From Bacteroidales bacterium (GTDB taxonomy: Bacteria; Bacteroidota; Bacteroidia; Bacteroidales; P3), in contig JAFVWV010000149.1 in NCBI GenBank assembly GCA_017501495.1, positions 1-59,612 on the forward strand: a stretch of DNA of 59,612 bases, written 5' to 3'. The translations under genes were made by a program, and so were the position numbers. Positions 16,852 to 37,182 of the stretch are shown in pieces. Within the stretch, counting starts at the first letter, position 1, and each line of letters opens with the position of its first letter. The notes below the pieces were generated by a model. It was not told the origin of the DNA, made no database searches, and was given only the letters and a program-made list of their open reading frames with translations.

Positions 16852-16919
16852 TTGGGACACCACAGTTTTCAATTTTCAATTCCTAATTATCAACTTACAA
16901 GAAAGGACTCGACAAAGAT

Positions 16920-17969: not shown

Positions 17970-18086
17970 AAACCCGTCGAGATAGACGACACCGAAATCG
18001 AGAAGCAGATCCGCGACACGCTGGCCCGCCTCTCGCCCCTCGGCAAGAGCAAGACCTCCAAGCACAACCGCGAGAAGCGCCAGAAG

Positions 18087-20028: not shown

Positions 20029-20610
20029 ATGACAAAGAATCTCTACATAATAGCAGGTTGCAACGGAGCTGGCAAGACGACAGCATCCTACACCATACTG
20101 CCCGAGATTCTTGACTGCCACGAGTTCGTCAACGCCGATGAGATTGCCCGCGGCCTGTCGCCATTCAACCCTGGCGGCATGGCCATCGAAGCCGGCAAAC
20201 TGATGTTAAAGCGCATCAAAGAACTGCTCAGCCGCGACGAATCCTTTGCCATAGAAACCACCCTCGCCACCCGGTCTTATGTCAATCTTGTACATCAAGC
20301 ACAGGCCAAAGGCTATCTCGTTACCCTTGTGTTCTTTTGGCTCAACAGCCCAGAGTTGGCGCTACGGCGTATTGCCGAGCGTGTACAGAACGGTGGCCAC
20401 GATATTCCAGAGCCAACAGCACGACGTAGGTACATTGCAGGTATTGACAACCTCTTTAACCTATACATCCCGGAGGTTGACTATTGGATGATTTATGACA
20501 ATAGCGAATCTCCCTGTCTTCCCGTTGCACAAGGGAAAACAACGAAGACATCAACCCTCTACGATGAGGACAAACTGAATAAAATCAAGAGTTATGTCAG
20601 AAAAAGATGA
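20029..20610 (+). CDS. Zeta-toxin-family P-loop kinase
   Basis: Walker A AGCNGAGKTT at the N-terminus and a size of about 190 aa. GC is lower than the surrounding core genes. Confidence 0.65.
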   Translation: MTKNLYIIAGCNGAGKTTASYTILPEILDCHEFVNADEIARGLSPFNPGGMAIEAGKLMLKRIKELLSRDESFAIETTLATRSYVNLVHQAQAKGYLVTLVFFWLNSPELALRRIAERVQNGGHDIPEPTARRRYIAGIDNLFNLYIPEVDYWMIYDNSESPCLPVAQGKTTKTSTLYDEDKLNKIKSYVRKR

Positions 20611-20844: not shown

Positions 20845-20919
20845 GCTCCTGTAGTTCAATGGATAGAATAGAGGTTTCCTAAACCTTTGATCAGGGTTCG
20901 ATTCCCTGCGGGAGTACCA
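20845..20919 (+). tRNA. tRNA-Arg (anticodon CCT) with encoded CCA
   Basis: Cloverleaf by hand. Acceptor stem gctcctg/cgggagt, anticodon arm gaggt-ttCCTaa-acctt, T arm cagggttcgattccctg, then a discriminator A and CCA. Confidence 0.9.
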
Positions 20920-22753: not shown

Positions 22754-23542
22754 ATGGCAAAGACCAACCCAACCCTCGGTCCTAATTCTGGCAAAATCGG
22801 CGACTTGGTATATTACACCCGCTTCGGCAAGGAGTTCGTCCGCCGTAAGGCAAAGACTTTTAACGACTGCAAGTCGGAAGCGCAGCTGCGCCAGCGAGCC
22901 ATCTTCAAGGCCACCCAGCAGACCGCAGCCCTCTATGGTTCCCTGTTGCAACGCGGCCTCACCAAGTACGCCCATAGCCAAGGCCACACCGAAGCCAACG
23001 AGTTCTCGCGCCTCAACAAAGAGCGCTTCTCCTATGCCGACGGCAAAGTCACCATCGACTACCCCGCCCTGCAACTTGCGGTTGGCCCCCTGCCCTCTGT
23101 CGCTTTCACAGCTTGCCACGCCGGAGGTCTCCACATCACGCTGACGTTCGACCCCAACCCCTCCGCCGACAAAGCCCGTCCCGACGATGTCGTCCACATC
23201 TATGCCGTCTCCCCGCAAGCCGAAGTCTGTATGCTAATGACTAGCGTAGAAAGGCAATCCGGACAGGCCGCCTTCGAACTACCCGACCTGAGCGACGAGG
23301 TAACAACAGCATGCAAAAAAGAGCCAACGAATAAACCATTGAATAAGACTAATGCATTCACACACTCACGCACTAACGCAATCAACTATCACCTCTACGC
23401 CATCGTCGAAGCAGCCAACACCGCCCCCATCTCCACCCTCTCCGCCGCCGAGAAGAAAGCCAACAAACTCCACCGCAACATCAACCGCCGCGTCTCCAAC
23501 TCTATATTCATCGGCTCCATCATTGCACCATGCCTCCCCTAA
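22754..23542 (+). CDS. Hypothetical protein, member of a three-paralog family (with 41546..42265 and 51055..51777)
   Basis: N-terminus GKIGDLVYYTRFGKEFVRR aligns with GRLKKSGVTFYTRNGQMVAR of 41546. It is a stand-alone gene behind a long CT-rich leader. Confidence 0.6.
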   Translation: MAKTNPTLGPNSGKIGDLVYYTRFGKEFVRRKAKTFNDCKSEAQLRQRAIFKATQQTAALYGSLLQRGLTKYAHSQGHTEANEFSRLNKERFSYADGKVTIDYPALQLAVGPLPSVAFTACHAGGLHITLTFDPNPSADKARPDDVVHIYAVSPQAEVCMLMTSVERQSGQAAFELPDLSDEVTTACKKEPTNKPLNKTNAFTHSRTNAINYHLYAIVEAANTAPISTLSAAEKKANKLHRNINRRVSNSIFIGSIIAPCLP

Positions 23543-23674
23543 AAAACGTTGATACGCTTCATCCAGCCCACCCCCAAACTGAAATTCAGCCCATTTGCTC
23601 AATGACAAAAACAATGAGAACCAAGAAATTACTTCGTATAAAACTGTTTATTTTGTCAATTTAATTCTTTTTTG

Positions 23675-23682
23675 TATCTTTG
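23675..23682 (+). promoter_or_regulatory. -7 promoter box (tatctttg) of the restriction/defence operon
   Basis: Matches TAnnTTTG 26 nt before ATG 23708. No comparable box was seen between the next five tightly packed genes. Confidence 0.55.
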
Positions 23683-23707
23683 CATTTGCATAGATAAATA
23701 TCTTACA

Positions 23708-24964
23708 ATGGGACAACAAACTGATTGCAAGCAAAAAAGAAAAGGTTTGTTCACGATGATAGACCTTTTCGCAGGAGCAGGAGGTCTCTCTGAGGGGTTT
23801 GTGCAGGCTGGATTTGACCCCATTGCACACATTGAAATGGATAGAGACGCATGCGACACGTTGAGGACTCGCTGCTGCTATCACTATCTCCGCAACAAAA
23901 ATAAACTCGATATCTATTATAGCTACTTAAAAGGAGAGATTTCCAGAGACAAGCTATACAAGTCAGTACCTTCATGGGTTATTGATGCAGTAATAAATGT
24001 AGAGATTTCCGACAATACAATCAAATCAACTTTTGCAAAAATCAAAGAGTTGTCTGCCAACAGAGGGATTGACCTGATCATAGGTGGTCCTCCGTGCCAA
24101 GCATATTCTCTTTTGGGTCGACACGACAAGAAAATGGAAGATGACCCTCGCACCCGTTTATATCTTCAATACGGTAAGTTCCTTGCGGAATTCAAACCGA
24201 AAGGATTCGTTTTTGAGAACGTGCCGGGGCTGTTGAGTGCAAAAAAAGGAGAGCATTTCAAGAATTTAAGAGAATACTTCGATAGCTTGGGTTACAATGT
24301 ACACTATAAAATGCTCGATGCATCCGACTATGGTGTTTTACAAGTCAGGAAAAGGCTCATTATTGTAGGCTGGCAAAAAGAGCATGACTATGGATACCCG
24401 GACATTCCAATAAATAAAGCTTCTGTTGCTGTCAACGACATCCTTAATGATTTGCCTCTTTTGAAAGCAGGCGATGTTTTGCAGGTGGCACCGTATAGAC
24501 AGTCTGCAAACGAGTATTTGCTTGTTAGTGGAATTCGAGATAAAGACGAAGTATTTGTTACACAAAACATCACTCGTCCTATCAACACCAATGATGCCGC
24601 CATCTATGCTTATGCCATAAAAGCTTGGAATGACAAACATATCCGCGTTAAATACACCGATCTTCCTGTGGAGTTGAAGACGCATAAAAACGAGGAATCG
24701 TTTTTGGATAGGTTTAAGGTAGTTGATGGGAATGGTCTTTCGCATACTTTAGTCGCTCACCTTGCCAAAGATGGCCACTACTTTATCCATCCAAATATCA
24801 ATTACTGTCGTTCCATATCCATACGGGAAGCCGCCAGGCTGCAATCATTCCCTGACAACTACTTCTTCGAGGGAAGCCGTTCTGCAAAATTTAAACAAAT
24901 AGGCAATGCTGTGCCACCTTTGATGGCTAAGACTATTGCCACTACTATATTTCAAATGTTATGA
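23708..24964 (+). CDS. DNA (cytosine-5)-methyltransferase (M1)
   Basis: Motif I DLFAGAGGLSEGF, IV GGPPCQAYS, VI FVFENVPGL, VIII LQVRKRL, X QIGNAVPP. Confidence 0.95.
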   Translation: MGQQTDCKQKRKGLFTMIDLFAGAGGLSEGFVQAGFDPIAHIEMDRDACDTLRTRCCYHYLRNKNKLDIYYSYLKGEISRDKLYKSVPSWVIDAVINVEISDNTIKSTFAKIKELSANRGIDLIIGGPPCQAYSLLGRHDKKMEDDPRTRLYLQYGKFLAEFKPKGFVFENVPGLLSAKKGEHFKNLREYFDSLGYNVHYKMLDASDYGVLQVRKRLIIVGWQKEHDYGYPDIPINKASVAVNDILNDLPLLKAGDVLQVAPYRQSANEYLLVSGIRDKDEVFVTQNITRPINTNDAAIYAYAIKAWNDKHIRVKYTDLPVELKTHKNEESFLDRFKVVDGNGLSHTLVAHLAKDGHYFIHPNINYCRSISIREAARLQSFPDNYFFEGSRSAKFKQIGNAVPPLMAKTIATTIFQML

Positions 24965-27134
24965 CCGATAACTTGCCCATAAATTCAATGGAAGTGCCTG
25001 TTGATGACCAAGAACGGGTCGCAAAATTCAAGCCCCGTGCAAGGTTATTATTACAATTAGGGGACCAGCTGATAAAAAACGAAAGCATTGCATTGCTTGA
25101 GTTGGCCAAAAATGCTTATGATGCAGATGCCTCAAAAGTAACAATAATCATGCATAATCCAGATTCGATTGAAAATGGTGACATTGAAATTGAGGACGAT
25201 GGATTTGGCATGACCGGCGACATTGTTGAAAATGTTTGGCTTGAACCGGGAAGTAACTTTAAGCAGGAGCAATATATTGAACGTAAAGTGACACCTAAAT
25301 TCAAGCGACTTCCAATTGGTGAAAAAGGAATTGGTAGATTTGGTGCCCACAAACTTGGCAATGTCATTGAAATGACAACAAAAAATGCCGATGATAAAGA
25401 AGTTTATGTGCGTATCGATTGGACAAGGTTTGCGGAACATAAGTACTTAGATGAAGTTCCAATAAAAATAATAGAAAGGGGTAATCCCCAATATTTTACG
25501 GATGGAAAGACCGGAACCAGAATTGTTATTCATGGCTTTCGTCATCCTTGGGAAAGAGGAACTGCTCGCGAAGTAAAGAGAGCAATGACCTCTATAACTT
25601 CTCCTTTTGAAACAGTTGGATCGTTTAAACCGAGCTTTGAGATATTAGATAAACCAAATGGTTTGATGGAATATTGTCATGGGATGGAGTTCGTGATTAT
25701 TCTCTCTTTCAGTTTGAGGCAATAATAGAGGGTAATTCAATCACACATTTTTCCTACAAATTCACACCATGGGCGACCATGACGAAATTGAAAGAAAGAG
25801 AAGTTGGCATCACGGATTCCATTGTAAACAACTATTTGAGAATAAAAGATGAGAAAGAAGAGGATGTAAATCTAAAACAATATAAAATCGGCAGGATAAA
25901 ATTTAAAGGCTACATTTTTGACCAAGATGCTTTTGTGTTAAAGATGGGGTTATCAGATAAATCCGGTTTTAAAGCATATTTAAAGTCTAATGGTGGGGTT
26001 CGTGTATTTCGAGACGGGCTAAGAATATATGACTACGGAGAACCCGAGAATGACTGGTTGGCATTGGATTATAGAAGATTTCAGCAGCCGACAAAAGCCA
26101 TTAGCAATAATCTCATTGTCGGTGCTGTTGAACTAAATAGAGATGAAAGCTCTGATTTGGAGGAAAAGACAAATCGAGAGGGCTTTGTGGCTAATGATGC
26201 CTATGCTGCATTTAAGAATGCTGTTTTGCATATCATTGAAATAGTTGAGATTCTTCGTCAAACAGACAAGAAAAAACTAAAAGAAATATACGGCCCGACA
26301 CCGAAATCCGAGCCCGTAATGAGCCTTATCGGAGAGGCTCAACGGTATGTCGAAGATAAGGTCGCAAACAGTGAAGTGAAAGCTGAAATCAAGAAATACC
26401 TCGTTAAAATCGAGCGTGACTATAAGATAGTGACCGACAATTTGCTAAAAGCCGCTGGTGCTGGCCTGAATATGTCCGTTGTTGTACATGAGATTGAAAA
26501 AATAATATATGAAGTCACAAAAGTATTAAAATCAGAGAAAGCATCGGAAAGAGTTCTTCATCTTGTGGAACATCTTTCTTCGCTGATTGATGGCTATGCA
26601 GATTTGATTCGTCGTTCAGACCAAACAACAGAAAATGTTGTTAACATTGTGAATCAAGCATTGTTTAATACAGAATATAGACTAGAAGCTCACAACATAG
26701 TTCTAATAAAAAAGTATAGTGGCAACAGTCAAATAAAAAATGTGCGATGCAAGGTGGCCAGAAATTTGATGATTAGCACTGTAATGAACCTGATCGACAA
26801 CTCTATCTATTGGCTTGATCAAAAATATTTCAAGAAAAAAGAAAAGAATGAATCGTTTAATAAGAAACTATACATTGACATTTTCCAAGAAAATGATTTT
26901 GTAAACATTTTGGTCGCTGATAATGGTACAGGCATATTATTACCCACGGAAGAAATCACAGAACCATTTGTTACAGGAAAGAAAAATGGAGCTGGCATGG
27001 GACTAGGCCTTCATATTGCAAGTGAAGTGATTGCTGCACAAGGTGGAAAAATCATTTTCCCCGACAATGGGGATTATGATGTCCCAGCAGAATTCCAAGA
27101 AGGTGCAATTGTCGTATTATCATTGAAAAAATAA
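24961..27134 (+). pseudogene. Fused MORC-like GHKL ATPase plus histidine-kinase transmitter (DHp + HATPase_c), split by a 1-nt frameshift near 25653-25662
   Basis: N-terminus: ELAKNAYDADASKVTI, IEDDGFGM, GEKGIGRFGAHKLG. C-terminus: H-box-like VVHEIEKII, N-box MNLIDNSIYW, G1 VADNGTGI, G2 GAGMGLGLHIA. ORFs 24961..25725 and 25674..27134 overlap in frames 1 nt apart, and the frame-2 sequence reads naturally from 25653. Confidence 0.75.
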
Positions 27135-27142
27135 TCTTATAT

Positions 27143-28504
27143 ATGAAAGATAGCATTATACCGATAACGGGACGTATTGCCATAATTGATGACAATATTA
27201 ACGAAGTAAAACCACTTATGAGGGAGTTTTCTCAAAACAACATCCCTTATGTTTATATCAAAGGTGACGACGAATCTTTTTTCCCAGAAGAACCAGACAA
27301 TGATATTCGGATACTTTTTTTAGATATTAATCTTTTAGGGCAATCCTCTACTAACGATAAAAACATTAAAAGCAATCTTATTAGTGTAATCCGAAGAGTT
27401 ATTTCCCCTAATAATTACCCGTATGTTTTAATATATTGGAGCCTTCAGGAACGTGAATATGACGCAATAATTCGAGAAGTGTTTGAAACCGTCTTGGAAG
27501 ATAGGCGTCCCATTTCTGTACATCGGTTTATAAAATCGGACTTCTTTTTAATACCGGGAGGAGAAGAACAACCTACTGACAAGAACATTGTTGAAGAATT
27601 AAAGAGAATAGTTCAGGGAATCCCTGCATATAACTATTTAATGCAGTGGGAAAATATTGCACATAATTCCACAGACAAGTTATTAAAAGAAATTTTTCCA
27701 AATGCAACCCCCGATGAATGGGAAAATGTAACGAACGTAATAATAAATTCATTAGGGCAAGCATACATTGGACAATATTTCCACGATGCTCCAATTGAAG
27801 AAAAAATCAAAGCAAGTTTAATGGCCTTAAATATGATATTTGTCGATTCTTTAGACAATCATTTAGGTCAATGTGAGATAAACAATCCCCAAGAGCTAAC
27901 TTCAAATGATTTTGACAAACAAAGAATAGGAGAATTAAAAGCCACTCTCAATCACAAATTGCTCATTTATACAACTCCCAACAATATTTGTGAACCAGGT
28001 GTGGTTATCCAATACACAAAGCCTACAAATGGCTATTTTGAGTCATTTCTACACAAAGTATTATCTATTTTCTCAATAAAACATGAAATCTTATGCAAAA
28101 CGCCAGACATTCTTGATGGTTTATTGAAGCAAGAATTAGGCAACAGAGTAAAACAGATAAAACAAGAAATCCAACAAACCTGGATAAGAATAGGTGTTGT
28201 AGTAACTCCAAGTTGCGATTTTGCACAAAAGAAAAAAATCTGTGACCGGGTTGTGCAAGGTGTCATGATAGAATCTCAATTTAGAAATTATTTAAATCAA
28301 GGTGATGCCTTTTATACCTCTCCTATAATAAGGCATGATGGGAGAAATTATATTGTCGTATTAAACTTTAATTATTTTATTACAACAAACCTTAACGGCG
28401 AGTCAGACTGCACTATTCTTTTTAAAATAAGACGTCCAATGTTGGCAGAAATTCAATCAAAATTAGCTCGACATATCAACCGACAGGGAATAATGAATTT
28501 ATAG
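27143..28504 (+). CDS. Receiver (REC)-like domain protein with an uncharacterised C-terminal domain of about 300 aa
   Basis: RIAIIDDN (acidic pair), ILFLDINLL (candidate phospho-acceptor Asp61), VLIYWS and a later Lys fit a CheY-like pattern. The rest of the protein has no motif I recognise. Confidence 0.6.
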   Translation: MKDSIIPITGRIAIIDDNINEVKPLMREFSQNNIPYVYIKGDDESFFPEEPDNDIRILFLDINLLGQSSTNDKNIKSNLISVIRRVISPNNYPYVLIYWSLQEREYDAIIREVFETVLEDRRPISVHRFIKSDFFLIPGGEEQPTDKNIVEELKRIVQGIPAYNYLMQWENIAHNSTDKLLKEIFPNATPDEWENVTNVIINSLGQAYIGQYFHDAPIEEKIKASLMALNMIFVDSLDNHLGQCEINNPQELTSNDFDKQRIGELKATLNHKLLIYTTPNNICEPGVVIQYTKPTNGYFESFLHKVLSIFSIKHEILCKTPDILDGLLKQELGNRVKQIKQEIQQTWIRIGVVVTPSCDFAQKKKICDRVVQGVMIESQFRNYLNQGDAFYTSPIIRHDGRNYIVVLNFNYFITTNLNGESDCTILFKIRRPMLAEIQSKLARHINRQGIMNL

Positions 28505-28513
28505 ACAGGTATT

Positions 28514-29776
28514 ATGCCAAAGAACACATATAATATTAATTCTTTTTTTGCAGGAGTAGGCGGATTTGACGTAGCGTTTGAAAGACAAGGATTTTCGACG
28601 ACATTACTGTGTGAGATAAACCCGTTCTGTAATCAAATCCTAGACAGGCATTGGCCTCATGTTAAAAAAGTTGGTGATATTAATATTATTAAATCAGACG
28701 ATATTCCACAATCTAATGTGTGGTGCGGAGGATTTCCTTGTCAGGACATTTCTGTTGCTCGGGGTGCTTCAGCAAGATTAGGATTGAAAGGAACCAGGTC
28801 TGGTTTGTTTTATCGTTTTGCAGAACTAATTGAAGCAGAAAAGCCCGAAGTTGTAATTATTGAGAATGTTGCCGGTCTGTTTACATCTAATAAAGGAAGA
28901 GATTTCGGAGTTATTCTACAGACTCTATCCTCTTTGGGTTATGCTGTTGCTTGGAGATTGTTGAACAGCCGCTATTTTGGTGTTCCGCAGTCTCGTACAC
29001 GTGTTTATTTGTGTTGCTGGAGAAATAACCCCCAAAAAGCATTAAGCGTCATGTTCGATAAAAAAGGTGCTGTAAAACCACAAAACGAAAGAATTGATTT
29101 TATTACAGAAGATAACGCCCGTAATACATATCCTAAAGTACCTAAAGTAGCCTATTGCCTTGCGGCTTCATCTGGAAGACATACTGGAACGGATTGGAGT
29201 AGGACATATGTTGTTTGCAGAAATGGTGTCCGACGTTTGTCACCTGTTGAATCAGAAAGACTTCAGGGTTTTCCAGATAATTGGACTTTGCCGTCGGAGG
29301 AATTGATAAATGATGAAAACATAAACACGCTCAGATATACTGCAATAGGGAATGCAGTATCTGTTCCTGTTGTTGAATGGGTGGCAAAAAAGGTGAAGAA
29401 ACAGCTTGGAAGTAAGCTCAAGGAAAATGATTTAGCGGATGATATTATGTCATATCATGATTTAAAAAAATCAAAGTGGTCTGATGTGGAATTAAATAAT
29501 ATTGACTTTACCGATACAACAAAAACATATAAATGGGAAAGAGGTGGTTTGGTCTGGCATAACCGGTTCATCGAATGCAATATTCCGCCCACTCCTTCTG
29601 AAATTGTTAATTCGTCTTTGTCAAACTTGATTGAAAAAAAACAAAACAATCCAGTTTATTTTCTTTCGCCAAACGCAGCAGAAGGAATTTTACGACGTGT
29701 TGATAGCCAAAATAGAAGTCTTTTTGCACCATTGCGAATCGCTTTAGAAAAATTAAGTTCCCAAAATAACAAATAA
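28514..29776 (+). CDS. DNA (cytosine-5)-methyltransferase (M2) with a C-terminal extension
   Basis: Motif I SFFAGVGGFDVAF, IV GGFPCQDIS, VI IIENVAGL, VIII PQSRTRVY, X IGNAVSVPV. Confidence 0.95.
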   Translation: MPKNTYNINSFFAGVGGFDVAFERQGFSTTLLCEINPFCNQILDRHWPHVKKVGDINIIKSDDIPQSNVWCGGFPCQDISVARGASARLGLKGTRSGLFYRFAELIEAEKPEVVIIENVAGLFTSNKGRDFGVILQTLSSLGYAVAWRLLNSRYFGVPQSRTRVYLCCWRNNPQKALSVMFDKKGAVKPQNERIDFITEDNARNTYPKVPKVAYCLAASSGRHTGTDWSRTYVVCRNGVRRLSPVESERLQGFPDNWTLPSEELINDENINTLRYTAIGNAVSVPVVEWVAKKVKKQLGSKLKENDLADDIMSYHDLKKSKWSDVELNNIDFTDTTKTYKWERGGLVWHNRFIECNIPPTPSEIVNSSLSNLIEKKQNNPVYFLSPNAAEGILRRVDSQNRSLFAPLRIALEKLSSQNNK

Positions 29777-29777
29777 T

Positions 29778-31520
29778 ATGATGAACTTCAATTTTATTAC
29801 AGTCCGATTAGGCAAAGATAGCATTCCTGACATTGAAAGGATTTGCTCGTCGGAGGTTGGCGTTCTGAATGATTCTTTCGCCATAAATGTGAAATGTACT
29901 CAGATTCCTGAAAATTATAATTCGGGAGATTATGCTTTTATTTGGTTGGGCTCAGACAACAATAAAGGAATGCCAACAAAATGGAAACAGGGATTTAAAG
30001 CAATAGGACGGGTTGGTACTATTATACGTGGTGCCAGTTATAATGAGACATCTGAAACCGCTATTAATATTGTCTACGTTTTTAATGACGCAATCAATCG
30101 TCTTGATTTTTTAAGGTCTGCACCTATTGAGTATTATTGGTGTTCAAACATGCCATTGATTGGAATTGACGATCATGCTAATCAAACGATAAGAAGTGTT
30201 AGTGGTTCATCTTTATGTGATATTCCCGCACTCTTTTGCTCAATAAATAGAATTTGTGACACCTTTAAAAGTGATATCTTAAAAATAGAACCTGGTTTTC
30301 TGCACCTTTTCTCTTTTTCAATACCAAAACCCAAAAACTTCCCTGATGCAAAATCAATAGTTGAAGTTAAACAACAGAATAATAAAAAGACAACTACAGG
30401 GAATACTTATCTACCCTACCTCGCCGCCTTGCGGACGAAGCCGTTTATGTTGCTGGCGGGTATTTCGGGAACGGGAAAGAGTAGGATTGTGAGGGAGATG
30501 GCAAAGGCTTGCTGGAAGGAGGGCGACCCGGAATATGGGAAGCCCCTCCCAAGGAACTTCTGCATGGTGCAGGTAAAGCCCAACTGGCACGACAGCAGCG
30601 AACTGATAGGCTATGTGTCGCGTCTGAACGGGGAGAAGTTCGTGGTGGGTCCGTTCCTACGTTTCCTGGCGGCGGCACTCAAAGAGCCCGATGTGCCTTA
30701 TTTCCTCTGCCTTGACGAGATGAACCTCGCCCCTGTGGAGCAATACTTCGCCGAATACCTCTCCGTCATTGAGAGCCGCAAACTGAACCCCGACGGTACC
30801 ATCACTACCGACCCCATCATCGAATATGAGAACACCGATGCCTACGGCAGCCTGATAGACCAACTGTTTGACACACCTGAGGAACGCAAAGCCTACAAGA
30901 CCGATGATGGCGGCAAGCGCCTCTCCATCCCACAGAACCTCTTCGTGGTGGGTACGGTGAATATGGACGAGACAACCTTCTCGTTCAGCCGTAAGGTGCT
31001 GGACCGCGCCATGACTATCGAGATGAATGAGGTGGACCTACACGGAGGTCTTGAGAAAGGCACCGGCAACGACATCGGCTATATAGGCAACAGTATCATC
31101 GGCGATGCCGCCGAGGGCTGCGATGTGTACGAGGACAACCGCGAGCTGTGCGACCAAGTGCTGGCCTACCTGGAGCAGGTGAACGCCATCCTAGAGGGCA
31201 CCCCCTTCAAGATAGCTTACCGCACCCGCAATGAATTCCTGATGTACGCCGTCAATCGCAAGGCTCTGGCCCCCGACAGCCAGCTGTGGCAGACCCTCGA
31301 CGAGATGACCTCTATGAAAATCCTCTCCCGCATCGAAGGCGACGAAGAGCGCACCAAGAAAGTCCTCGACGGCCTCAAAGCCCTGGTAGATGAGCAGATT
31401 GTGTCCGCCATCCCGCCCGCCGAAGAAGGCAATCCTGTGCAGAAAAGCATCTCCGCCGCCAAGATAGAAGAGATGCAGAAGAAACTCCAAGCCACAGGCT
31501 TCACCAGCTACTGGGCATAG
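29778..31520 (+). CDS. McrB/LlaJI.R1-like AAA+ GTPase restriction subunit. The AT-rich N-terminal domain presumably binds DNA, and the AAA+ domain is GC-rich.
   Basis: Walker A LLAGISGTGKSR, NWHDSSELIGY, Walker B FLCLDEMNLAP, VVGTVNMDETT and SRKVLDRAMTIE, all typical of the McrB AAA_5 family. Confidence 0.8.
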   Translation: MMNFNFITVRLGKDSIPDIERICSSEVGVLNDSFAINVKCTQIPENYNSGDYAFIWLGSDNNKGMPTKWKQGFKAIGRVGTIIRGASYNETSETAINIVYVFNDAINRLDFLRSAPIEYYWCSNMPLIGIDDHANQTIRSVSGSSLCDIPALFCSINRICDTFKSDILKIEPGFLHLFSFSIPKPKNFPDAKSIVEVKQQNNKKTTTGNTYLPYLAALRTKPFMLLAGISGTGKSRIVREMAKACWKEGDPEYGKPLPRNFCMVQVKPNWHDSSELIGYVSRLNGEKFVVGPFLRFLAAALKEPDVPYFLCLDEMNLAPVEQYFAEYLSVIESRKLNPDGTITTDPIIEYENTDAYGSLIDQLFDTPEERKAYKTDDGGKRLSIPQNLFVVGTVNMDETTFSFSRKVLDRAMTIEMNEVDLHGGLEKGTGNDIGYIGNSIIGDAAEGCDVYEDNRELCDQVLAYLEQVNAILEGTPFKIAYRTRNEFLMYAVNRKALAPDSQLWQTLDEMTSMKILSRIEGDEERTKKVLDGLKALVDEQIVSAIPPAEEGNPVQKSISAAKIEEMQKKLQATGFTSYWA

Positions 31521-31546
31521 AAAGTATATAATATGGATTTGTCATT

Positions 31547-32707
31547 ATGAATACTTATAATATACCGACGTTACCTCTACCTTACGACCTTGAGACCATT
31601 GCCGTCTTAAAGCAGGTAAACCGAGCAAACAAAAAGCTGGCTGAGTTGAAGGGCGTCGCACAAACTATTCCCAACGAGCAGATTCTTATCAGCAGCCTAA
31701 CCCTACAAGAATCCCGGGACAGTTCCTACGTGGAAAACATTGTCACTACGCATGACGAATTGTATCGTGCGGAATTGGAACCGACGTTGATTGAATTCAA
31801 TGCCGCAACCAAAGAGGTTTTGCACTACAGAGAAGCCATCAATGAAGGTTTCCGTCTTGTAAGAGACAAGAACATTCTCACGCTGAATCATATAAAACGC
31901 ATCCAAGAAATACTTGAAGAAAATAAAGCCGGATTCAGAAGTACACCTGGAACAAAGCTCAAGAGAGAATCCGATGATGCCATCGTATATGTTCCGCCTC
32001 AGGATCCGATGGAGGTGGAAAGATGCATGGTAAACCTGGAACAATTCATTAATGACATTGAGTTGAGCCCTGTCGACCCATTAATCAAAATGGCCATTAT
32101 CCACCATCAATTCGAAAGTATACATCCTTTCTACAACGGCAATGGGAGAACAGGTCGTATTGTAAATATATTATATCTCGTCATAAGCGGCTTGCTTGAC
32201 TTGCCAATCCTTTATCTAAGTCGATACATTACGCACAACAAAGGTGAGTACTATCGACTATTGCAAGCCATCAGAGACAAGAACATAGACAATGCGAAGG
32301 AATGGGAAGAATGGGTTTTGTTCATTCTCAAGGGTGTTGAATCAACTGCTGAAGACACGATAACCCTTGTAAAAAGTATTGGATCAATGATGGATGATTA
32401 CAAGAGGATTTTGAGACCGGCTTTCGGGAAAAAATATAGTCATGACCTTATAAACGGTTTGTTCTATCATCCCTATACCAAGATAGAACATGTGGAAAGA
32501 AATCTACAACTCTCACGACAGACAGCCTCAAAGTACCTTAACAAAATTGTATCATTGGGATTGCTTCACAAAGAAAAGATTGGAAAAGAGAACTACTACA
32601 TAAACACCAGATTGATGGATTTATTTGTCAGTTTCGGTGAATATGACGCTATCGTCCCCAATGAGAGTATAGAATCTGTTCATGTTAACGAAATCAAAAA
32701 AAATTAA
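31547..32707 (+). CDS. Fic-family protein (Fic_N, Fic core, C-terminal wHTH)
   Basis: Core motif HPFYNGNGRTGR at 32123-32158, inhibitory-helix motif SSYVEN (SxxxEN) at 31721-31738, and an AT-rich composition. Confidence 0.85.
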   Translation: MNTYNIPTLPLPYDLETIAVLKQVNRANKKLAELKGVAQTIPNEQILISSLTLQESRDSSYVENIVTTHDELYRAELEPTLIEFNAATKEVLHYREAINEGFRLVRDKNILTLNHIKRIQEILEENKAGFRSTPGTKLKRESDDAIVYVPPQDPMEVERCMVNLEQFINDIELSPVDPLIKMAIIHHQFESIHPFYNGNGRTGRIVNILYLVISGLLDLPILYLSRYITHNKGEYYRLLQAIRDKNIDNAKEWEEWVLFILKGVESTAEDTITLVKSIGSMMDDYKRILRPAFGKKYSHDLINGLFYHPYTKIEHVERNLQLSRQTASKYLNKIVSLGLLHKEKIGKENYYINTRLMDLFVSFGEYDAIVPNESIESVHVNEIKKN

Positions 32708-32747
32708 CATGAGATGCATGGTCATGTTAAGAAATTTCATTTTTTTT
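32704..32747 (+). terminator. Possible terminator after fic
   Basis: Stem ttaacatga / tcatgttaa, then gaaatttca and a T8 run. The T-run is not adjacent to the stem. Confidence 0.4.
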
Positions 32748-32805
32748 AACACGTTATTATTGTCAAGTTGATTTTTTGAAAAAAACTTAACACGAGAATT
32801 ATTAC

Positions 32806-34938
32806 ATGGACCTCCTGCGCATCACACACGACGATTTCTTCCTGACGGTGGAAAGTACCCAGTTCCAACGAATGTGGGACAAGGGGAGTCGCATCCTCGG
32901 CAGGGAGAAGTTGACCTCCTCATATCATTGGGGTGAGGGGGTACAGAAAGTGGTGCTGGTGAAAGGGGATGTTGAATGTGAGATTGTGCAGGACAATACC
33001 GAGACACCCGCTGTATTCTTCGAACAGACGGACTACAGCGTGTGGGTGGATTTTACCAATTCCAAGGTGACAAAAGCATGGTTCGACAGCCCAAGGAAGG
33101 ATGTCAACGACCGCTTCTCTTGGAAAGGGAGCAAGCAGATGTTGGCAGGATTCCTGAACTACGGTAACGAAATTGGCCGTGCCGACATGCCGATATGCTA
33201 CACCGTGAACGGAGTGCAGAAAAAATTTGTTTTCTCCTACGATGTCATCTCAGCCAAGTTGGACTATCATCAAGACTGGAAGATTATCCTGCAGGACATC
33301 GAGGAGGAGTACCGCATGCTGTCGCTGGACTACCTGCGGCGCACCTATCACGGCATCAAGGAAGAGCATGGCGAGAGTTACGACATCATTTGGTGGAATA
33401 TCTTCGGCGGGCTGCAAGAGCAGTTCCTGCGTACCGTCCATAACATCATCGACCGGCCACGTCATCGGCTGAAATCCATCGAGACCTACAAACGGGCCGA
33501 CCAGATACGCCGCCTCACACCGCAACTGGAGCAACAACTGGCCGAGCACCGCATGGAAGAGACCCGCCTGTACCGCGTAGAGGAGCAGCAGAACACCTAT
33601 AATACCCCAGAAAACCGTTTCCTGAAGCATGCCCTGCTGACGGTTCAAAAACGCTATTCTGCCCTCGCAGAGAGAGTTCTCCTGCAGGACACCCGTATGG
33701 CCGACACCCACCGGGACAGGATAGCCCACACCCGTGACGAGCTGAACCGCCTGTTGCGACACCCCTTCTTCCGTACCGTGGGACCATTTGACGGCATCAA
33801 GCAGGAGTCGCTCATCCTGCAGAAGGATGTAAATTACTCGAAAGTGTTCCGCATCTACACCATCCTGCAAAAGTCCTTCAGCCTCAACGACGGTCTCTAC
33901 CGCATGGAGACCAAGGACATAGCCACCCTGTACGAGATATGGTGTTTCATCCAGGTGGAGAAGGTGGTCAAAGAGCTGACTGGCGCAGAAGCCGAGCAGC
34001 ATAGCCGCACGGAGATGAGTGGTCTTTTCACCTACAGTCTTGGCAAAGGCGAACACTCGAAGATTATCTTCAAGAAAGACGATGTGACGCTGGCTGAGTT
34101 GGTTTACAATCCACGGCATAGTGACAAGGACGACGTGAAAGGTATTGGTGAGTTGGAGTCGAAGACCGTGCCGCAGAAACCCGACATCGTGTTGCAGCTC
34201 ACCAAGGACGATCTGCAGGAAGGCATGAAACTCACCTACCTCTTCGATGCCAAATACCGGTTGGAGAAAGATGGTGCGAACGATGTGCCCCCCGACGATG
34301 CCATCAACCAGATGCACCGCTACCGTGACGCTATCTACTATAACAGCAAACACCGGGACGAGAAGATAAAGAAAGAGGTCATCGGCGGCTACATCCTCTT
34401 CCCCGGCCAGATGGACGAACTCTCGCGCTTCCGTCGCAGCATCGACGAGGTGAATATCGGAGCTTTCCCTATGCGTCCCGGCGACAACCAGCACGAACTA
34501 TTGTCCGACTTCATCAAAGACCTACTGAACAAACACGCCGTGGAAATCGTCGAGCAAGTTATCCCGCAGAAAGGTACCTACCTGGAGATAAAGAACAGAG
34601 TCTTGGTTGGCGTAGTCAAGTCCGACAACCCTCAATATGAGAACTTCAAGGATGGCACCGCCTCCTTCTACTACTCTGGCGACACTTTTCCAACTACCAT
34701 CCCATTGGATGGCATAGATTATTTCGCACCATACATCCCCGACAAAGGAATACGTGACCTATATCTTGTGTCAGGCATCCACACCTCAACCAAGGCCAAG
34801 GGGGCTGATGACGACAAACTTCGTATCACCTTTGAGCTCAAATTTGCCCGTACTTTATTTACAGACTACAAAATAGTCCCCCTCCCGATACAACACACTT
34901 TCAACGACACCTCATTGGACAAACTAACTTTGGAGTGA
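32806..34938 (+). CDS. McrC/LlaJI.R2-like restriction subunit (DUF2357-like N-terminus plus PD-(D/E)xK nuclease)
   Basis: 710 aa. KPDIVLQL ... YLFDAKYR gives the D...(D/E)xK arrangement seen in McrC-type nucleases. It follows the McrB-like gene. Confidence 0.7.
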   Translation: MDLLRITHDDFFLTVESTQFQRMWDKGSRILGREKLTSSYHWGEGVQKVVLVKGDVECEIVQDNTETPAVFFEQTDYSVWVDFTNSKVTKAWFDSPRKDVNDRFSWKGSKQMLAGFLNYGNEIGRADMPICYTVNGVQKKFVFSYDVISAKLDYHQDWKIILQDIEEEYRMLSLDYLRRTYHGIKEEHGESYDIIWWNIFGGLQEQFLRTVHNIIDRPRHRLKSIETYKRADQIRRLTPQLEQQLAEHRMEETRLYRVEEQQNTYNTPENRFLKHALLTVQKRYSALAERVLLQDTRMADTHRDRIAHTRDELNRLLRHPFFRTVGPFDGIKQESLILQKDVNYSKVFRIYTILQKSFSLNDGLYRMETKDIATLYEIWCFIQVEKVVKELTGAEAEQHSRTEMSGLFTYSLGKGEHSKIIFKKDDVTLAELVYNPRHSDKDDVKGIGELESKTVPQKPDIVLQLTKDDLQEGMKLTYLFDAKYRLEKDGANDVPPDDAINQMHRYRDAIYYNSKHRDEKIKKEVIGGYILFPGQMDELSRFRRSIDEVNIGAFPMRPGDNQHELLSDFIKDLLNKHAVEIVEQVIPQKGTYLEIKNRVLVGVVKSDNPQYENFKDGTASFYYSGDTFPTTIPLDGIDYFAPYIPDKGIRDLYLVSGIHTSTKAKGADDDKLRITFELKFARTLFTDYKIVPLPIQHTFNDTSLDKLTLE

Positions 34939-34995
34939 CCAACTCACCATGGCACCCGAACAGCGGAACCGTCGCATGTAATTTCCGTAAGCCTT

Positions 34996-35367
34996 TTAAT
35001 CCTCTATTATCCACAGATATTCTTTCAGCGGGACTTTGCCGGAGGGGGTGAGGCGGATGCCTTCGGAGGTTAAGAGGGAGGCTTGGGCGAGGTAATGCGA
35101 GGCGAGGCGGCCGGAGGCGTTGACGACGCGATGGCAGGGGAGGTCGGCATCGGGGGCCCCACGCATGATGCGACCCACCAGACGGGAATGATTGGGCCAG
35201 CCACACAAGGCGGCGATACGGCCATAGGTGAGCACCCGTCCACGCGGTATCTGTCGGACGATGTCGTAGACCTCGGCACGAAGGGTGGCCTCGCTCGGCT
35301 GTGCTGCAACGTTTATCATGAACGAATAACGCAATGCGCTGCTAATTATTGTCTCTCCTTTTATCAT
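34996..35367 (-). CDS. MGMT-family (O6-alkylguanine transferase DNA-binding domain) protein
   Basis: 123 aa with RIPRGRVLTYGRIA and the active-site-like motif PCHRVVNASG. Confidence 0.8.
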   Translation of the reverse strand: MIKGETIISSALRYSFMINVAAQPSEATLRAEVYDIVRQIPRGRVLTYGRIAALCGWPNHSRLVGRIMRGAPDADLPCHRVVNASGRLASHYLAQASLLTSEGIRLTPSGKVPLKEYLWIIED

Positions 35368-36636: not shown

Positions 36637-37182
36637 ATGACCGACACCATGACACCCGAGCAGCGGCACCGCTGCATGTCGCACATACGCAGCAAGGCCA
36701 CGAGGCCGGAACTGCTGGTGCGGCGGTGGCTGTGGAGCCACGGGTATCGGTATCGGCTGAACGTCAAGAGTGTCCCCGGCAAGCCGGACATCGTGCTGCG
36801 GCCCTACCGCACGGCGATATTCGTCAACGGGTGCTTCTGGCACGGACATGGTGTGCGTCCTCCGGCCGTACAAATTGAAAATTCAAAATTGAAAATTGAA
36901 AACTCCCCCTGCTGTAAGATTCCACAGACTAACCGCAACTTCTGGCTGGAGAAGATACGTCGCAACCAGGAGCGCGACCAGCGCAACTACACCCTGCTGC
37001 AGGACAACGGCTGGCAGGTCATCGTCGTCTGGGAGTGCCAACTGAAGCCCGACAAGATAGAGCGCACCATGCGCGAGGTGGAACTGGCGCTGAACAACAA
37101 CCTGCTGGCAATATATAAACACCATCCCCTCCCCTACTCCACCGACGAGGACGAACCCATGCCCATGGCGGCGGAGGATTGA
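36637..37182 (+). CDS. vsr: Very-short-patch repair endonuclease (Vsr) carrying an in-frame insertion of about 18 aa
   Basis: RSKATRPEL, PGKPDIVL, FVNGCFWHGH, NFWLEKIRRNQERD and VIVVWECQL. The segment VRPPAVQIENSKLKIENSP lies between GH and CC. Confidence 0.85.
   Translation: MTDTMTPEQRHRCMSHIRSKATRPELLVRRWLWSHGYRYRLNVKSVPGKPDIVLRPYRTAIFVNGCFWHGHGVRPPAVQIENSKLKIENSPCCKIPQTNRNFWLEKIRRNQERDQRNYTLLQDNGWQVIVVWECQLKPDKIERTMREVELALNNNLLAIYKHHPLPYSTDEDEPMPMAAED

What the first reader, a model, noticed from the sequence alone, without database searches (positions are those of the whole stretch)
27143..28504. Receiver-domain protein with an unrecognisable ~300-aa output domain: candidate effector of the module
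What the sequence shows: the first ~130 residues follow a CheY-like pattern. D16/D17 lie in RIAIIDDN, D61 in ILFLDINLL, S100 in VLIYWS and K131 follows, with somewhat longer spacings than CheY. The remaining ~320 residues carry no nuclease, HTH, TIR, PNP or TM motif that I can recognise.

Inference: its position directly after the kinase-like gene and before M2 suggests it is the phospho-acceptor and output of the system. The output activity is unknown and is the main novelty target.
Basis: inference. Interest (0 to 1): 0.7.

Follow-up and report, generated by a model that had tools for sequence, protein, structure and literature searches.

The report
Receiver-domain effector of methylase-linked kinase module
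This gene encodes the response-regulator-like partner of an unusual soluble histidine-kinase/MORC-type ATPase that travels with DNA cytosine methylases; the gene pair was described computationally in 2021, and what is new here is that its uncharacterised output region is predicted to end in a basic, MazF-toxin-like barrel, which makes it a testable candidate effector of a methylation-linked defence cassette.

Summary
ORF 27143-28504 encodes a 453-aa protein whose first ~135 residues fold as a receiver domain (AlphaFold pLDDT 86.7; Foldseek top hits are response regulators). The phospho-acceptor pocket is almost universally kept in 129 diverse relatives: D61 and K131 in 129/129, D16 (D/E) and D17 (D/N) in 128, S/T100 in 124. 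No profile library recognises the remaining ~320 residues.

It is not a new kind of thing. The same pair, a receiver-like protein directly after a ~715-aa protein with an N-terminal MORC-type GHKL domain plus H-box and C-terminal kinase ATPase, beside C5 methylases and Vsr, was published by Bellieny-Rabelo et al. 2021 (Response_reg_2/HEF_HK). That work was computational only and did not treat the output region.

New here:
- The output is a ~200-aa helical domain with no structural match, plus a ~105-aa basic beta-barrel and helix. Its best PDB matches are all MazF toxins, at fold level only; profile comparison is negative.
- C358 and R447 are invariant.
- The architecture is fixed across at least 1,166 clusters.

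In this window the kinase gene carries a 1-nt deletion and the cassette lies on a low-GC island. Most likely role: a phospho-switched effector of a Dcm-linked defence cassette. This is inferred, not shown.

The parts
23672..24964 (+). M1: C5 cytosine DNA methyltransferase. Its stop overlaps the start of the kinase-like gene (ATGA, -4 nt). This is the methylase that most consistently accompanies the pair.
   Evidence: Pfam DNA_methylase E 7.9e-66. Best PADLOC hit is DrmMII, E 1e-163. NCBIfam dcm. A methylase sits directly upstream of the pair in L001, L008, L009, L010, L012, L013 and the P0003 contig; the truncated upstream ORF in L014 has no Pfam call.
24961..27134 (+). Kinase-like partner (paraMORC-type GHKL + H-box + HATPase_c). 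It is read as two ORFs (24961-25725 and 25674-27134) because one A is missing from an A4 run at about 25656-25658. Relatives encode one protein of 703-724 aa.
   Evidence: HATPase_c_3 E 1e-14 and HATPase_c E 5.7e-8. The two ORFs are collinear with the intact 706-aa L001 protein (64% and 54% identity). The deletion is shown against L012 (99% relative) and L013. The H-box VVVHE(I/V)EK, the N, G1, F and G2 boxes and the N-terminal Bergerat motifs are conserved.
27143..27547 (+). Receiver (REC-like) domain of the target, residues 1-135. The acceptor Asp61 codon is at 27323-27325. Pocket residues are D16, D17, S100 and K131.
   Evidence: AF2 model strands 12-16, 37-40, 57-60, 95-99 and 125-129 with intervening helices. 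Foldseek hits to receiver domains. Conservation counts.
27587..28180 (+). Helical middle domain of the target, residues 149-346. It is net acidic. It carries W169-E170-N171, D235 and N270, each kept in at least 90% of the family (N171 in 81%). No structural or sequence relative was found.
   Evidence: Helices 149-158, 161-184, 190-213, 218-243, 259-274, 298-346 with pLDDT about 90. No PDB or BFVD match covers it. Conservation. Charge.
28181..28504 (+). C-terminal beta-barrel plus long helix of the target, residues 347-453. It is net basic. It contains the motif (T/S)-P-x-C358-D359-[YF]-[AV]-Q362, R/K369, and the terminal H444-I-N-R447-(P/Q)-G449. The predicted fold is MazF/PemK/CcdB-like.
   Evidence: Foldseek PDB with the C-terminal-only model: the top 15 hits are all MazF toxins (E 0.02-0.23, probability 0.63-0.96, TM to target 0.49-0.58, about 100 columns, rmsd about 4 A). 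PemK-like and endoribonuclease entries are among the few BFVD hits with probability 0.3-0.4. C358 and R447 are kept in 129/129, D359 in 128, Q362 in 119, R/K369 in 124. Net positive charge in 91% of members. No profile-level similarity to MazF.
28514..29776 (+). M2: a second C5 cytosine methyltransferase, 9 nt after the target. It is present after the pair only in the window's closer relatives and is probably the methylase of the downstream McrBC/LlaJI-like unit.
   Evidence: Pfam DNA_methylase E 3.3e-61. M2 follows the pair in L008, L012, L013, L014 and the P0003 contig, but not in L001, L009, L010 or L011.
29778..34938 (+). Neighbouring genes that are probably a separate restriction unit: McrB-like AAA_5 protein (29778-31520), SoFic (31547-32707) and McrC-like DUF2357+PDDEXK_7 nuclease (32806-34938).
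   Evidence: Pfam and PADLOC hits: AAA_5, PDC-M26A E 1.4e-42, SoFic E 6e-114, DUF2357 E 1.3e-42, PDDEXK_7 E 4.3e-35. In L013 and L014 a 596-615-aa gene with no Pfam call and then SoFic follow M2, and the next gene is cut by the contig end. GC is 47-49%, against 36-40% for the M1-M2 block.

Best explanation
The ORF encodes the response-regulator-like half of a two-gene phosphotransfer pair. This is the RR-like/Response_reg_2 protein of Bellieny-Rabelo et al. 2021. Its partner is a soluble protein that fuses a MORC-type GHKL ATPase, a likely DNA-clamping sensor, to a histidine-kinase core (H-box plus HATPase_c).

The pair travels as a compact cassette with a C5 cytosine methylase and often Vsr. 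In several genomes the cassette contains no recognisable nuclease.

Proposed mechanism (inferred):
1. The methylase marks the host's own DNA.
2. The paraMORC-kinase detects a DNA state, most simply unmethylated or foreign DNA, and autophosphorylates on the H-box histidine.
3. It transfers the phosphoryl group to Asp61 of this protein.
4. Phosphorylation of the receiver releases or re-orients the C-terminal output, which is an acidic helical domain plus a basic MazF/CcdB-like barrel with an invariant Cys358-Asp359 loop and Arg447.
5. The output then acts on nucleic acid or another essential target to stop phage or plasmid propagation, by restriction or by growth arrest.

Shown by computation here: the receiver fold, the conserved acceptor pocket, an intact kinase core in relatives, strict gene adjacency, the methylase and Vsr linkage, the fixed architecture, and the barrel's fold-level resemblance to MazF.

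Inferred only: phosphotransfer, what is sensed, and the biochemical activity and target of the output.

In this window the kinase gene is frameshifted, so this copy may be inactive unless the deletion is a sequencing error.
For: - Fold: AF2 pLDDT 86.7, pTM 0.78. Foldseek hits are mainly response-regulator receivers.
- Acceptor pocket: D61 and K131 in 129/129, D16 (D/E) and D17 (D/N) in 128, S/T100 in 124 of 129 diverse representatives.
- Partner: conserved His-Glu H-box, N/G1/F/G2 boxes and N-terminal GHKL motifs. The partner is always directly upstream.
- Minimal cassettes without a recognisable nuclease: L009 has Dcm-HK-RR between pheT and secreted-protein genes. L001 has Vsr-Dcm-HK-RR between TPR/PDZ and moaA/moaE genes.
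- Published statistics: 91.6% linkage of the two genes over 644 regions, and over-representation of R-M domains nearby (PMC8011034).
- Homology: full-length homology between the window's clade and the proteobacterial clade (hhalign 99.7%, E 9e-27, 419 columns).
- Output region: the top 15 PDB fold matches are all MazF toxins. The barrel is net basic in 91% of members, while the other two domains are acidic. C358 and R447 are invariant, and D359, Q362, R/K369, E170, D235 and N270 are each kept in at least 90%.
- Architecture: fixed in the best 150 of 1,166 representative clusters.
- Operon structure: gaps of -4, 8, 9 and 1 nt.
- Horizontal acquisition: island at 36-40% GC against 57-61% in the host, next to a tRNA-Arg gene.
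- Precedent: Detocs shows that a kinase plus a receiver-effector can be a bona fide anti-phage system (10.1101/2023.01.24.525353).
Against: - There is no experimental evidence for phosphotransfer, toxicity or defence for any member. The only paper is computational.
- The MazF relation is fold-level only. Foldseek E-values are 0.02-0.3. hhalign against MazF/PemK profiles gives probability below 1%. No Pfam PemK hit. No antitoxin gene is present.
- Residue-level equivalence to the MazF catalytic Arg and Thr could not be checked, because no coordinates or structural alignment were available.
- An invariant cysteine is not a feature of MazF-type RNases, so the chemistry may be different.
- No PADLOC model hits either protein, so the defence role rests on context alone.
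- Some loci do carry other nucleases nearby, such as EcoRII-C and HNH in L007 and a LlaJI-like unit in L010. The pair could therefore assist other enzymes rather than act on its own.
- In the window the kinase gene is disrupted.
Confidence: 0.45

Rival explanations
1. Regulator or adaptor, not an effector. The receiver-like protein has no catalytic activity. When phosphorylated, it binds and controls something else: the paraMORC-kinase itself, the methylase, or nearby nucleases. This would tune R-M activity, for example delaying restriction after transfer to a new host. The 2021 paper also speculated that the pair has a regulatory role.
For: - No catalytic motif of any known nuclease is recognisable.
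- MazF/CcdB-type barrels can act through binding alone, as CcdB does on gyrase (general knowledge).
- The authors of PMC8011034 propose a signalling role that controls R-M systems.
Against: - There is no DNA-binding HTH or other regulatory output domain.
- Minimal cassettes such as L001 and L009 hold only Dcm (with or without Vsr), HK and RR, with nothing else to regulate or recruit.
- The strict invariance of C358 and R447 and the near-invariance of several acidic and amide residues look more like an active site than a binding surface, although this is not decisive.
Confidence: 0.25
2. Split restriction enzyme. The pair is the R component of an ATP-dependent Type II-like restriction system related to HgiDII/BbrUII, where a GHKL domain is fused to a nuclease. 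Here the nuclease is a novel DNA endonuclease carried by the receiver-like protein. It cleaves unmethylated DNA directly, rather than causing RNA cleavage or growth arrest.
For: - The N-terminal GHKL domain of the partner matches the BbrUII/HgiDII restriction-enzyme family (NCBIfam NF050001, E 6e-22, positions 10-183 of 659) and the PADLOC Type II REase model PDLC03419.
- The cassette always includes a Dcm and often Vsr, as in classical R-M systems.
- Conserved E170, D235, D359, D/E436 and H444 could bind metal.
- The C-terminal module is basic.
Against: - No PD-(D/E)xK, HNH, GIY-YIG or PLD signature or fold was detected.
- The only fold match is to RNase or gyrase-poison type toxins.
- A full kinase core with a conserved acceptor Asp would be an unusual way to couple the subunits of a restriction enzyme.
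Confidence: 0.2
3. Pseudo-receiver. The N-terminal domain keeps the receiver fold but is never phosphorylated. It serves as a docking module that holds the protein on the paraMORC dimer. The C-terminal GHKL of the partner acts as an ATPase, not a kinase.
For: - No standard Response_reg profile recognises the domain.
- Helix alpha2 is missing.
- The partner's N-terminal domain is an ATPase of the MORC/MutL type rather than a classical sensor.
Against: - All five residues needed for phosphoryl chemistry are conserved at 96-100% across very divergent members. This is hard to explain without catalysis at that site.
- The partner keeps the His-Glu H-box and all the ATP-lid boxes of true kinases.
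Confidence: 0.1

Closest known systems
RR-like (Response_reg_2, PF19192) plus HK-like (HEF_HK, PF19191) two-component-like pair of Bellieny-Rabelo, Pretorius and Moleleki 2021 (PMC8011034)
   Same: - A ~450-aa protein with no standard domain and a receiver-like N-terminus carrying DD, D, T/S and K.
- It lies directly next to a soluble GHKL protein with an N-terminal HATPase_c_3, a His-Glu H-box and a C-terminal HATPase_c.
- C5 methylase and Vsr are in the neighbourhood.
- Bacteroidetes are among the hosts.
- The window's clade is homologous over its full length to the proteobacterial clade (hhalign 99.7%). That clade includes a protein UniRef names 'Response receiver domain-containing protein' (P0198).
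   Different: There is no difference in kind; this is a Bacteroidota-clade member. The paper did not analyse the C-terminal 320 residues, gave no structure-based assignment of the output, and contains no experiments. The Pfam models did not fire in the library used here, even on the positive control, so HMM membership could not be confirmed.
Detocs (DtcA kinase, DtcB buffer receiver, DtcC receiver-effector), Rousset et al. 2023
   Same: It uses two-component logic for defence. A kinase phosphorylates a receiver domain fused to a toxic effector in place of a DNA-binding output. Defence needs the kinase His and the receiver Asp.
   Different: - The sensor differs: TPR in DtcA, against a MORC-type GHKL here.
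- There is no stand-alone buffer receiver gene here.
- The effector differs: a PNP ATP nucleosidase in most Detocs, against a helical domain plus MazF-like barrel here.
- Detocs has no linked methylase or Vsr.
- No PADLOC hit links the proteins.
MazF/PemK/Kid (and CcdB) toxin fold
   Same: The predicted fold of residues 347-453 has a barrel with a long C-terminal helix and is about 105 residues long. All of the top 15 PDB matches are MazF toxins. The module is basic. A conserved R/K follows the beta1-beta2 loop.
   Different: - No sequence or profile similarity.
- It is fused behind two other domains rather than being a free ~110-aa toxin.
- There is no antitoxin gene.
- Its signature residues (invariant Cys358-Asp359, Arg447) are not those of MazF.
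paraMORC/MORC GHKL ATPases of restriction-modification operons (Iyer, Abhiman and Aravind 2008; PMC2292703) and the BbrUII/HgiDII restriction enzymes
   Different: The described paraMORC families carry S5, nuclease or TIR extensions. None was described with a kinase core or a receiver partner.
Canonical two-component response regulators (CheY/OmpR/NarL and similar; Pfam Response_reg PF00072)
   Same: The fold is the same, as are the five active-site residues and the gene order next to a kinase.
   Different: It is not detected by PF00072. Helix alpha2 is lost and the loops are longer. The output domain belongs to no known response-regulator class. The kinase is soluble, with a GHKL 'sensor'. 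The context is a defence or R-M island on mobile DNA.

Membership tests
RR-like / Response_reg_2 family (Bellieny-Rabelo 2021) | Receiver-like N-terminal domain with conserved acidic pair, acceptor Asp, Thr/Ser and Lys | tested here: met
   D16/D17, D61, S100 and K131 sit at the ends of beta1, beta3, beta4 and beta5. Conservation is 96-100% across 129 representatives.
RR-like / Response_reg_2 family (Bellieny-Rabelo 2021) | Gene directly adjacent to a GHKL protein with HATPase_c_3 + H-box + HATPase_c | tested here: met
   Met in the window (the kinase gene is frameshifted) and in all other loci examined. The H-box and ATP boxes are shown.
RR-like / Response_reg_2 family (Bellieny-Rabelo 2021) | Neighbourhood enriched in C5 DNA methylase and Vsr | tested here: met
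   M1 and M2 flank the pair in the window. Dcm and/or Vsr lie next to the pair in L001, L005-L014 and the P0003 contig. In L002 a methylase lies four genes upstream of the pair.
RR-like / Response_reg_2 family (Bellieny-Rabelo 2021) | Match to Pfam PF19192 above its gathering threshold | tested here: inconclusive
   There was no hit for the window protein, for 50 homologs at E<=10, or for proteobacterial homologs. P0198, which UniRef names 'Response receiver domain-containing protein', also gave no hit. The model is therefore absent or ineffective in this copy, and the test says nothing about membership.
RR-like / Response_reg_2 family (Bellieny-Rabelo 2021) | Homology to proteobacterial members of the family | tested here: met
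   hhalign of A1 against A4 gives probability 99.7%, E 9.2e-27, over 419 aligned columns. tblastn finds full-length hits to Burkholderia and Rhizobium plasmid genes in HK-RR-Vsr-Dcm cassettes.
Canonical response regulator (Pfam Response_reg PF00072) | Sequence match to the Response_reg profile | tested here: not met
   No PF00072 hit for the window protein or any of 50 homologs, even at E<=10.
Canonical response regulator (Pfam Response_reg PF00072) | Phosphorylation of the conserved Asp by a cognate histidine kinase | not testable with these tools
   This needs in vitro phosphotransfer. The only support here is indirect: a conserved pocket and a conserved H-box in the partner.
MazF/PemK toxin family (PF02452) | MazF/CcdB-type barrel fold | tested here: met
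   Support is only moderate, and it comes from a predicted model. The top 15 PDB hits are all MazF, with probability 0.63-0.96, TM to target 0.49-0.58 and E 0.02-0.23. BFVD PemK-like and endoribonuclease hits are weak.
MazF/PemK toxin family (PF02452) | Sequence or profile similarity to PemK/MazF | tested here: not met
   No Pfam PemK hit. hhalign against a 4-sequence profile and a 107-sequence MazF/PemK profile gives probability 0.05-0.2%.
MazF/PemK toxin family (PF02452) | Catalytic Arg and Thr/Ser at the MazF positions, and a cognate antitoxin gene | tested here: inconclusive
   R/K369 (96%) follows the beta1-beta2 loop, as MazF R29 does, and S/T414 is kept in 91%. No residue-level structural alignment was available to confirm equivalence. 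No MazE-like gene is adjacent in any locus.
Detocs | Three genes: DtcA (TPR-kinase), DtcB (stand-alone receiver) and DtcC (receiver + PNP or other effector) | tested here: not met
   No PADLOC family hits either protein. There is no stand-alone receiver gene in any locus. The sensor is a GHKL domain, not TPR.

The most novel reading that the evidence does not exclude
The M-HK-RR cassette is a self-contained, methylation-gated two-component immune system of a type not yet validated. In this reading, a MORC-like DNA clamp fused to a histidine kinase reads the methylation state of DNA. It converts that reading into a phosphoryl signal that unleashes a receiver-caged effector with a MazF-fold barrel and a new Cys/Arg-based active site. 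Restriction-type self/non-self discrimination would then be coupled to a toxin-type output rather than to a DNA endonuclease.
Probability: 0.25. Interest if true: 0.8.

Novelty: new member of a known kind. Interest (0 to 1): 0.5.

Why it matters
The family is large: at least 1,166 clusters at 50% identity, spread over Bacteroidota, Proteobacteria, Firmicutes and Ignavibacteriota, on chromosomes, conjugative plasmids and a virome scaffold. It is consistently tied to cytosine methylases. No member has been tested, and no defence-system catalogue recognises it.

If the proposed logic is right, it would be a second example after Detocs of phosphotransfer signalling used as immunity. It would also be the first in which a MORC-type ATPase feeds a kinase, which bears on how eukaryotic MORCs read epigenetic marks.

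The analysis gives concrete handles for experiments: the H-box His, D61, C358, R369 and R447, and the domain boundaries at residues 135, 149 and 347. For this particular window the finding is an ordinary member whose kinase gene may be broken.

Tried and rejected
- **Profile libraries.** Pfam, NCBIfam, PADLOC and PHROGs gave nothing for the target. The PDB sequence search with the family profile gave only noise.
- **Pfam PF19192/PF19191 membership.** I could not get a hit even for a positive control, so I dropped this test and used hhalign between clades instead.
- **Genome-contig scan.** I ran it with the single protein rather than the alignment, and it returned only one locus.
- **First C-terminal-only structure job.** I rebuilt the alignment without that row.
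- **By-eye MazF residue equivalences.** I aligned R369 and T414 by eye with MazF R29 and T52. Two hhalign tests, one with a 4-sequence and one with a 107-sequence MazF/PemK profile, gave no support. This stays a lead only. The forced local alignment was collinear and paired P356 and Q362 with the MazF P19 and Q25 signature, but at probability 0.1%.
- **BFVD fold search.** It added little.
- **Literature leads.** VcSduA in V. cholerae is a GHKL-Shedu fusion, not this system. DefensePredictor mentions a HATPase/REC candidate only in a figure legend and cannot be tied to this family. Iyer 2008 does not mention a receiver partner.
- **Promoter and terminator scan.** It was uninformative for this organism.
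- **C5-methylase motif resemblance.** I considered and rejected the idea that the TPxC and WEN motifs mimic the PC and ENV motifs of C5 methylases. The order and the fold are both wrong.
Full report
**1. The observation**

The ORF at 27143-28504 (+ strand, ATG start, 453 aa) exists as described. It has at least 421 full-length homologs. All are unnamed or called 'hypothetical', and none has a precomputed Pfam domain.

An AlphaFold2 model built on 50 homologs is confident (pLDDT 86.7, pTM 0.78). Residues 12-134 form alternating strands and helices. D16/D17, D61, S100 and K131 lie at the C-terminal ends of strands 1, 3, 4 and 5, which is the receiver-domain active-site geometry. Helix alpha2 is replaced by a loop.

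Foldseek against the PDB returns mainly response-regulator receivers: FixJ, StyR, DgcR, RR468, DrrB and RssB, with probability 0.99-1.0 and TM to target 0.5-0.59.

I aligned 129 representatives that are at most 50% identical to each other. Conservation at the pocket is:

| Position | Kept in (of 129) |
|---|---|
| D61 | 129 |
| K131 | 129 |
| W99 | 129 |
| 16 (D/E) | 128 |
| 17 (D/N) | 128 |
| 100 (S/T) | 124 |

No sequence library recognises the remaining ~320 residues.

**2. The partner and the cassette**

The two upstream ORFs (24961-25725 and 25674-27134) are one gene. They are collinear with a single 706-aa protein in an Ignavibacteriaceae genome (64% and 54% identity). The closest relatives of the window, at 99% and 89% identity, encode an intact 724-aa protein.

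The window has lost one A from an A4 run (CCAAAAT became CCAAAT, about 25656-25658). This is either a real inactivating slip or a sequencing error.

The intact protein has these parts:
- an N-terminal MORC/MutL-type GHKL domain (HATPase_c_3) with all ATP-binding motifs;
- a middle region;
- an H-box, VVVHE(I/V)EK, with conserved His-Glu;
- a C-terminal HATPase_c with N, G1 (ADNGxG), F and G2 (GMGLGL) boxes.

It is therefore a soluble histidine-kinase core whose 'sensor' is a paraMORC ATPase.

The kinase-like gene sits directly upstream of the receiver-like gene in every context examined, with gaps of 3-9 nt:

| Locus or group | Gene order |
|---|---|
| L001 | Vsr-Dcm-HK-RR, flanked by housekeeping genes |
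| L009 | Dcm-HK-RR only, between pheT and secreted-protein genes |
| L008, L012, L013 and the P0003 contig (L014 the same, with its first ORF cut off) | Dcm-HK-RR-Dcm |
| L010 | Dcm-HK-RR |
| L006 | HK-RR-Vsr-Dcm, on a Burkholderia plasmid |
| L011 | HK-RR-Vsr, then Dcm on the opposite strand two genes on |
| L007 | HK-RR-x-Dcm-Vsr-EcoRII-C, on a Rhizobium plasmid |
| L015 | a 327-aa ORF (not annotated), then HK-RR, on an 'UNVERIFIED bacteriophage' faecal scaffold |

In the window the genes are packed with gaps of -4, 8, 9 and 1 nt. The M1-HK-RR-M2 block is 36-40% GC, against 57-61% in the flanks, and lies downstream of a tRNA-Arg gene. It is a horizontally acquired island.

M2 with the McrB-like AAA_5 gene, SoFic and the McrC-like nuclease recurs only in close relatives. 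It has a different GC content (47-49%), so I treat it as a neighbouring LlaJI-like unit and not as part of the conserved module.

**3. Comparison with what is known**

Bellieny-Rabelo, Pretorius and Moleleki (Genome Biol Evol 2021; PMC8011034) described exactly this pair. An 'RR-like' protein without known domains has a receiver-like N-terminus, which they named Response_reg_2 (PF19192). It is 91.6% linked, over 644 regions, to an 'HK-like' GHKL protein with HATPase_c_3, a new DHp domain (HEF_HK, PF19191) and HATPase_c. The neighbourhoods are rich in C5 methylases, Vsr and Type II R-M domains, and Bacteroidetes are among the hosts.

The work is purely computational. It proposes only a regulatory link to R-M systems and does not discuss the C-terminal 320 residues of the RR-like protein.

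The Pfam copy available here never reported PF19192 or PF19191. That includes proteobacterial homologs and P0198, which UniRef names 'Response receiver domain-containing protein'. HMM membership could therefore not be tested.

Instead I showed that the window's clade and the proteobacterial clade are homologous over their full length (hhalign 99.7%, E 9e-27, 419 columns), with identical gene contexts. I conclude that the window protein is a Bacteroidota-clade member of this published family.

Other literature checks:
- Iyer et al. 2008 described paraMORCs in R-M operons, but no kinase fusion or receiver partner.
- Detocs is the validated functional analogue, with a kinase, a buffer receiver and a receiver-PNP effector. 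This pair is not a Detocs member, and no PADLOC model hits it.
- I found no later experimental work on the family.

**4. The output region**

A second AF2 model, of residues 140-453 alone, has pLDDT 86.5. It shows two parts.

(a) A helical domain, residues ~149-346. It is net acidic. It carries W169-E170-N171, D235 and N270, each kept in at least 90% of the family (N171 in 81%). It has no PDB or BFVD match.

(b) A beta-barrel with a long C-terminal helix, residues ~347-453.
- The 15 best PDB matches are all MazF toxins (MazF-mt3, MazF-mt1), with probability 0.63-0.96, TM to target 0.49-0.58, about 100 columns, rmsd about 4 A and E 0.02-0.23.
- In BFVD, the few hits with probability above 0.25 are 'PemK-like' and 'Endoribonuclease' entries.
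- This module is net basic in 91% of members.
- It holds the strongest motifs of the family: (T/S)-P-x-C358-D359-[YF]-[AV]-Q362, R/K369 (96%), and H444-I-N-R447-(P/Q)-G449. C358 and R447 are invariant in 129/129.

The MazF link is at fold level only. hhalign against a 4-sequence profile and then a 107-sequence MazF/PemK profile gave probability below 1%, and Pfam PemK is not hit. My eye-alignment of R369 and T414 with the MazF catalytic R29 and T52 is therefore unconfirmed. An invariant cysteine is not a MazF feature.

The profile of the C-terminal region finds 1,166 representative clusters. All full-length ones among the best 150 are 410-515 aa, with the match starting at residue ~135-165. 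The three-part architecture is fixed, and there is no sign of domain shuffling.

**5. How it most likely works**

Shown by computation:
- a receiver fold with a fully conserved phospho-acceptor pocket;
- a partner with a complete kinase core;
- obligatory adjacency of the two genes;
- linkage to Dcm and Vsr;
- cassettes that contain no recognisable nuclease;
- a basic toxin-like barrel at the C-terminus.

Inferred: Dcm marks self DNA. The paraMORC-kinase senses a DNA state, most simply unmethylated incoming DNA clamped by the GHKL dimer, and autophosphorylates. It then transfers the phosphoryl group to D61. Phosphorylation frees the C-terminal module, which acts on nucleic acid or another essential target and so restricts or aborts infection.

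I put 0.45 on this phospho-switched effector model. Within it, RNase versus DNase versus a binding poison is unresolved.

Rivals:
- a non-catalytic phospho-regulator or adaptor for other nucleases or the methylase (0.25);
- a split HgiDII-like restriction endonuclease with a novel DNA nuclease in the RR-like protein (0.2). This is supported by the NF050001 match of the partner's GHKL domain;
- a pseudo-receiver docking module (0.1). This is disfavoured by the 96-100% conservation of all five catalytic residues.

**6. Verdict**

The finding is real. The reading of it as a 'receiver plus unknown output next to a kinase-like gene' is right, but the module is already in the literature. It counts as a new member of a known, experimentally untouched kind.

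The added value here is:
- the domain map of the output;
- the fold-level MazF/CcdB resemblance, with its caveats;
- the list of invariant residues;
- the size and fixed architecture of the family;
- the minimal Dcm-HK-RR cassette;
- the fact that this window's kinase gene is frameshifted.

I score interest as moderate (0.5). A specialist in phage defence would want to test the system, but it would not overturn expectations. The most novel reading, a methylation-gated two-component toxin system, has perhaps a 25% chance.

Noticed in passing
window 25640-25680 (within 24961-27134): The kinase-like/paraMORC gene is split into two ORFs by the loss of one A from an A4 run (CCAAAT here, CCAAAAT in the 99% and 89% identical relatives L012 and L013, which encode an intact 724-aa protein). 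This is either real inactivation or a homopolymer sequencing error.
   Followed up: yes
window 16920-19889 (stop at 17967-17969): The infB (IF-2) gene after rimP-nusA has an in-frame TAG (GAG GAG TAG AAA) just after a poly-Lys stretch in the N-terminal region. The G-domain part could still be made from an internal start (GTG at 18087). It could be a nonsense mutation tolerated through internal initiation, or an assembly error. The 871-aa antisense ORF at 16890-19505 is probably spurious.
   Followed up: partly
window about 23600-35000; tRNA at 20845-20919: There is a strong compositional island. GC is 36-40% over M1-HK-RR-M2 and 47-49% over the McrB-like, SoFic and McrC-like genes, against 57-61% in the flanks. 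A tRNA-Arg(CCT) gene and a zeta-toxin/AAA_33-like ORF (20029-20610) lie just upstream. This suggests two separately acquired blocks at an integration hotspot.
   Followed up: partly
window 29778-34938; L013 7184-11547; L014 5845-9638: A SoFic (Fic adenylyltransferase) gene sits between the McrB-like AAA_5 gene and the McrC-like DUF2357+PDDEXK_7 gene. SoFic also follows the post-M2 gene in two relatives, so it may be part of that restriction unit (PADLOC candidate PDC-M26A/B).
   Followed up: partly
L015 (MT838277.1) 279-4796: A 5.4-kb 'UNVERIFIED: Bacteriophage sp.' scaffold from a human faecal virome carries three ORFs of 327, 703 and 438 aa. The last is a full-length homolog of the target at 23% identity. 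This is either a phage-borne copy or bacterial DNA in a virome.
   Followed up: partly
window 36637-37182: A Vsr very-short-patch repair endonuclease gene lies about 1.7 kb downstream of the island in host-like GC (60%), separated from it by an SBP_bac_3 gene (35767-36597). It may serve the island's C5 methylases or an older resident one.
   Followed up: no
window 28208-28228 (residues 356-362) compared with E. coli MazF residues 19-25: The Pro-to-Gln spacing in the family motif P356-x-C-D-Y-A-Q362 equals that in the MazF signature P19-x-x-G-x-E-Q25. A forced local hhalign pairs them collinearly, but with no statistical support (probability 0.1%).
   Followed up: yes
window 22754-23542: A DUF6266 protein gene lies directly upstream of M1, at the edge of the low-GC island. 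Its function is unknown, and I did not check whether it recurs in other loci.
   Followed up: no
L008 9634-14058: In a 63%-identical relative's locus, two large genes with no Pfam domain (690 and 781 aa) follow M2, and Vsr comes after them. They occupy the position that the McrB-like and McrC-like genes hold in the window and may be unrecognised restriction subunits.
   Followed up: no
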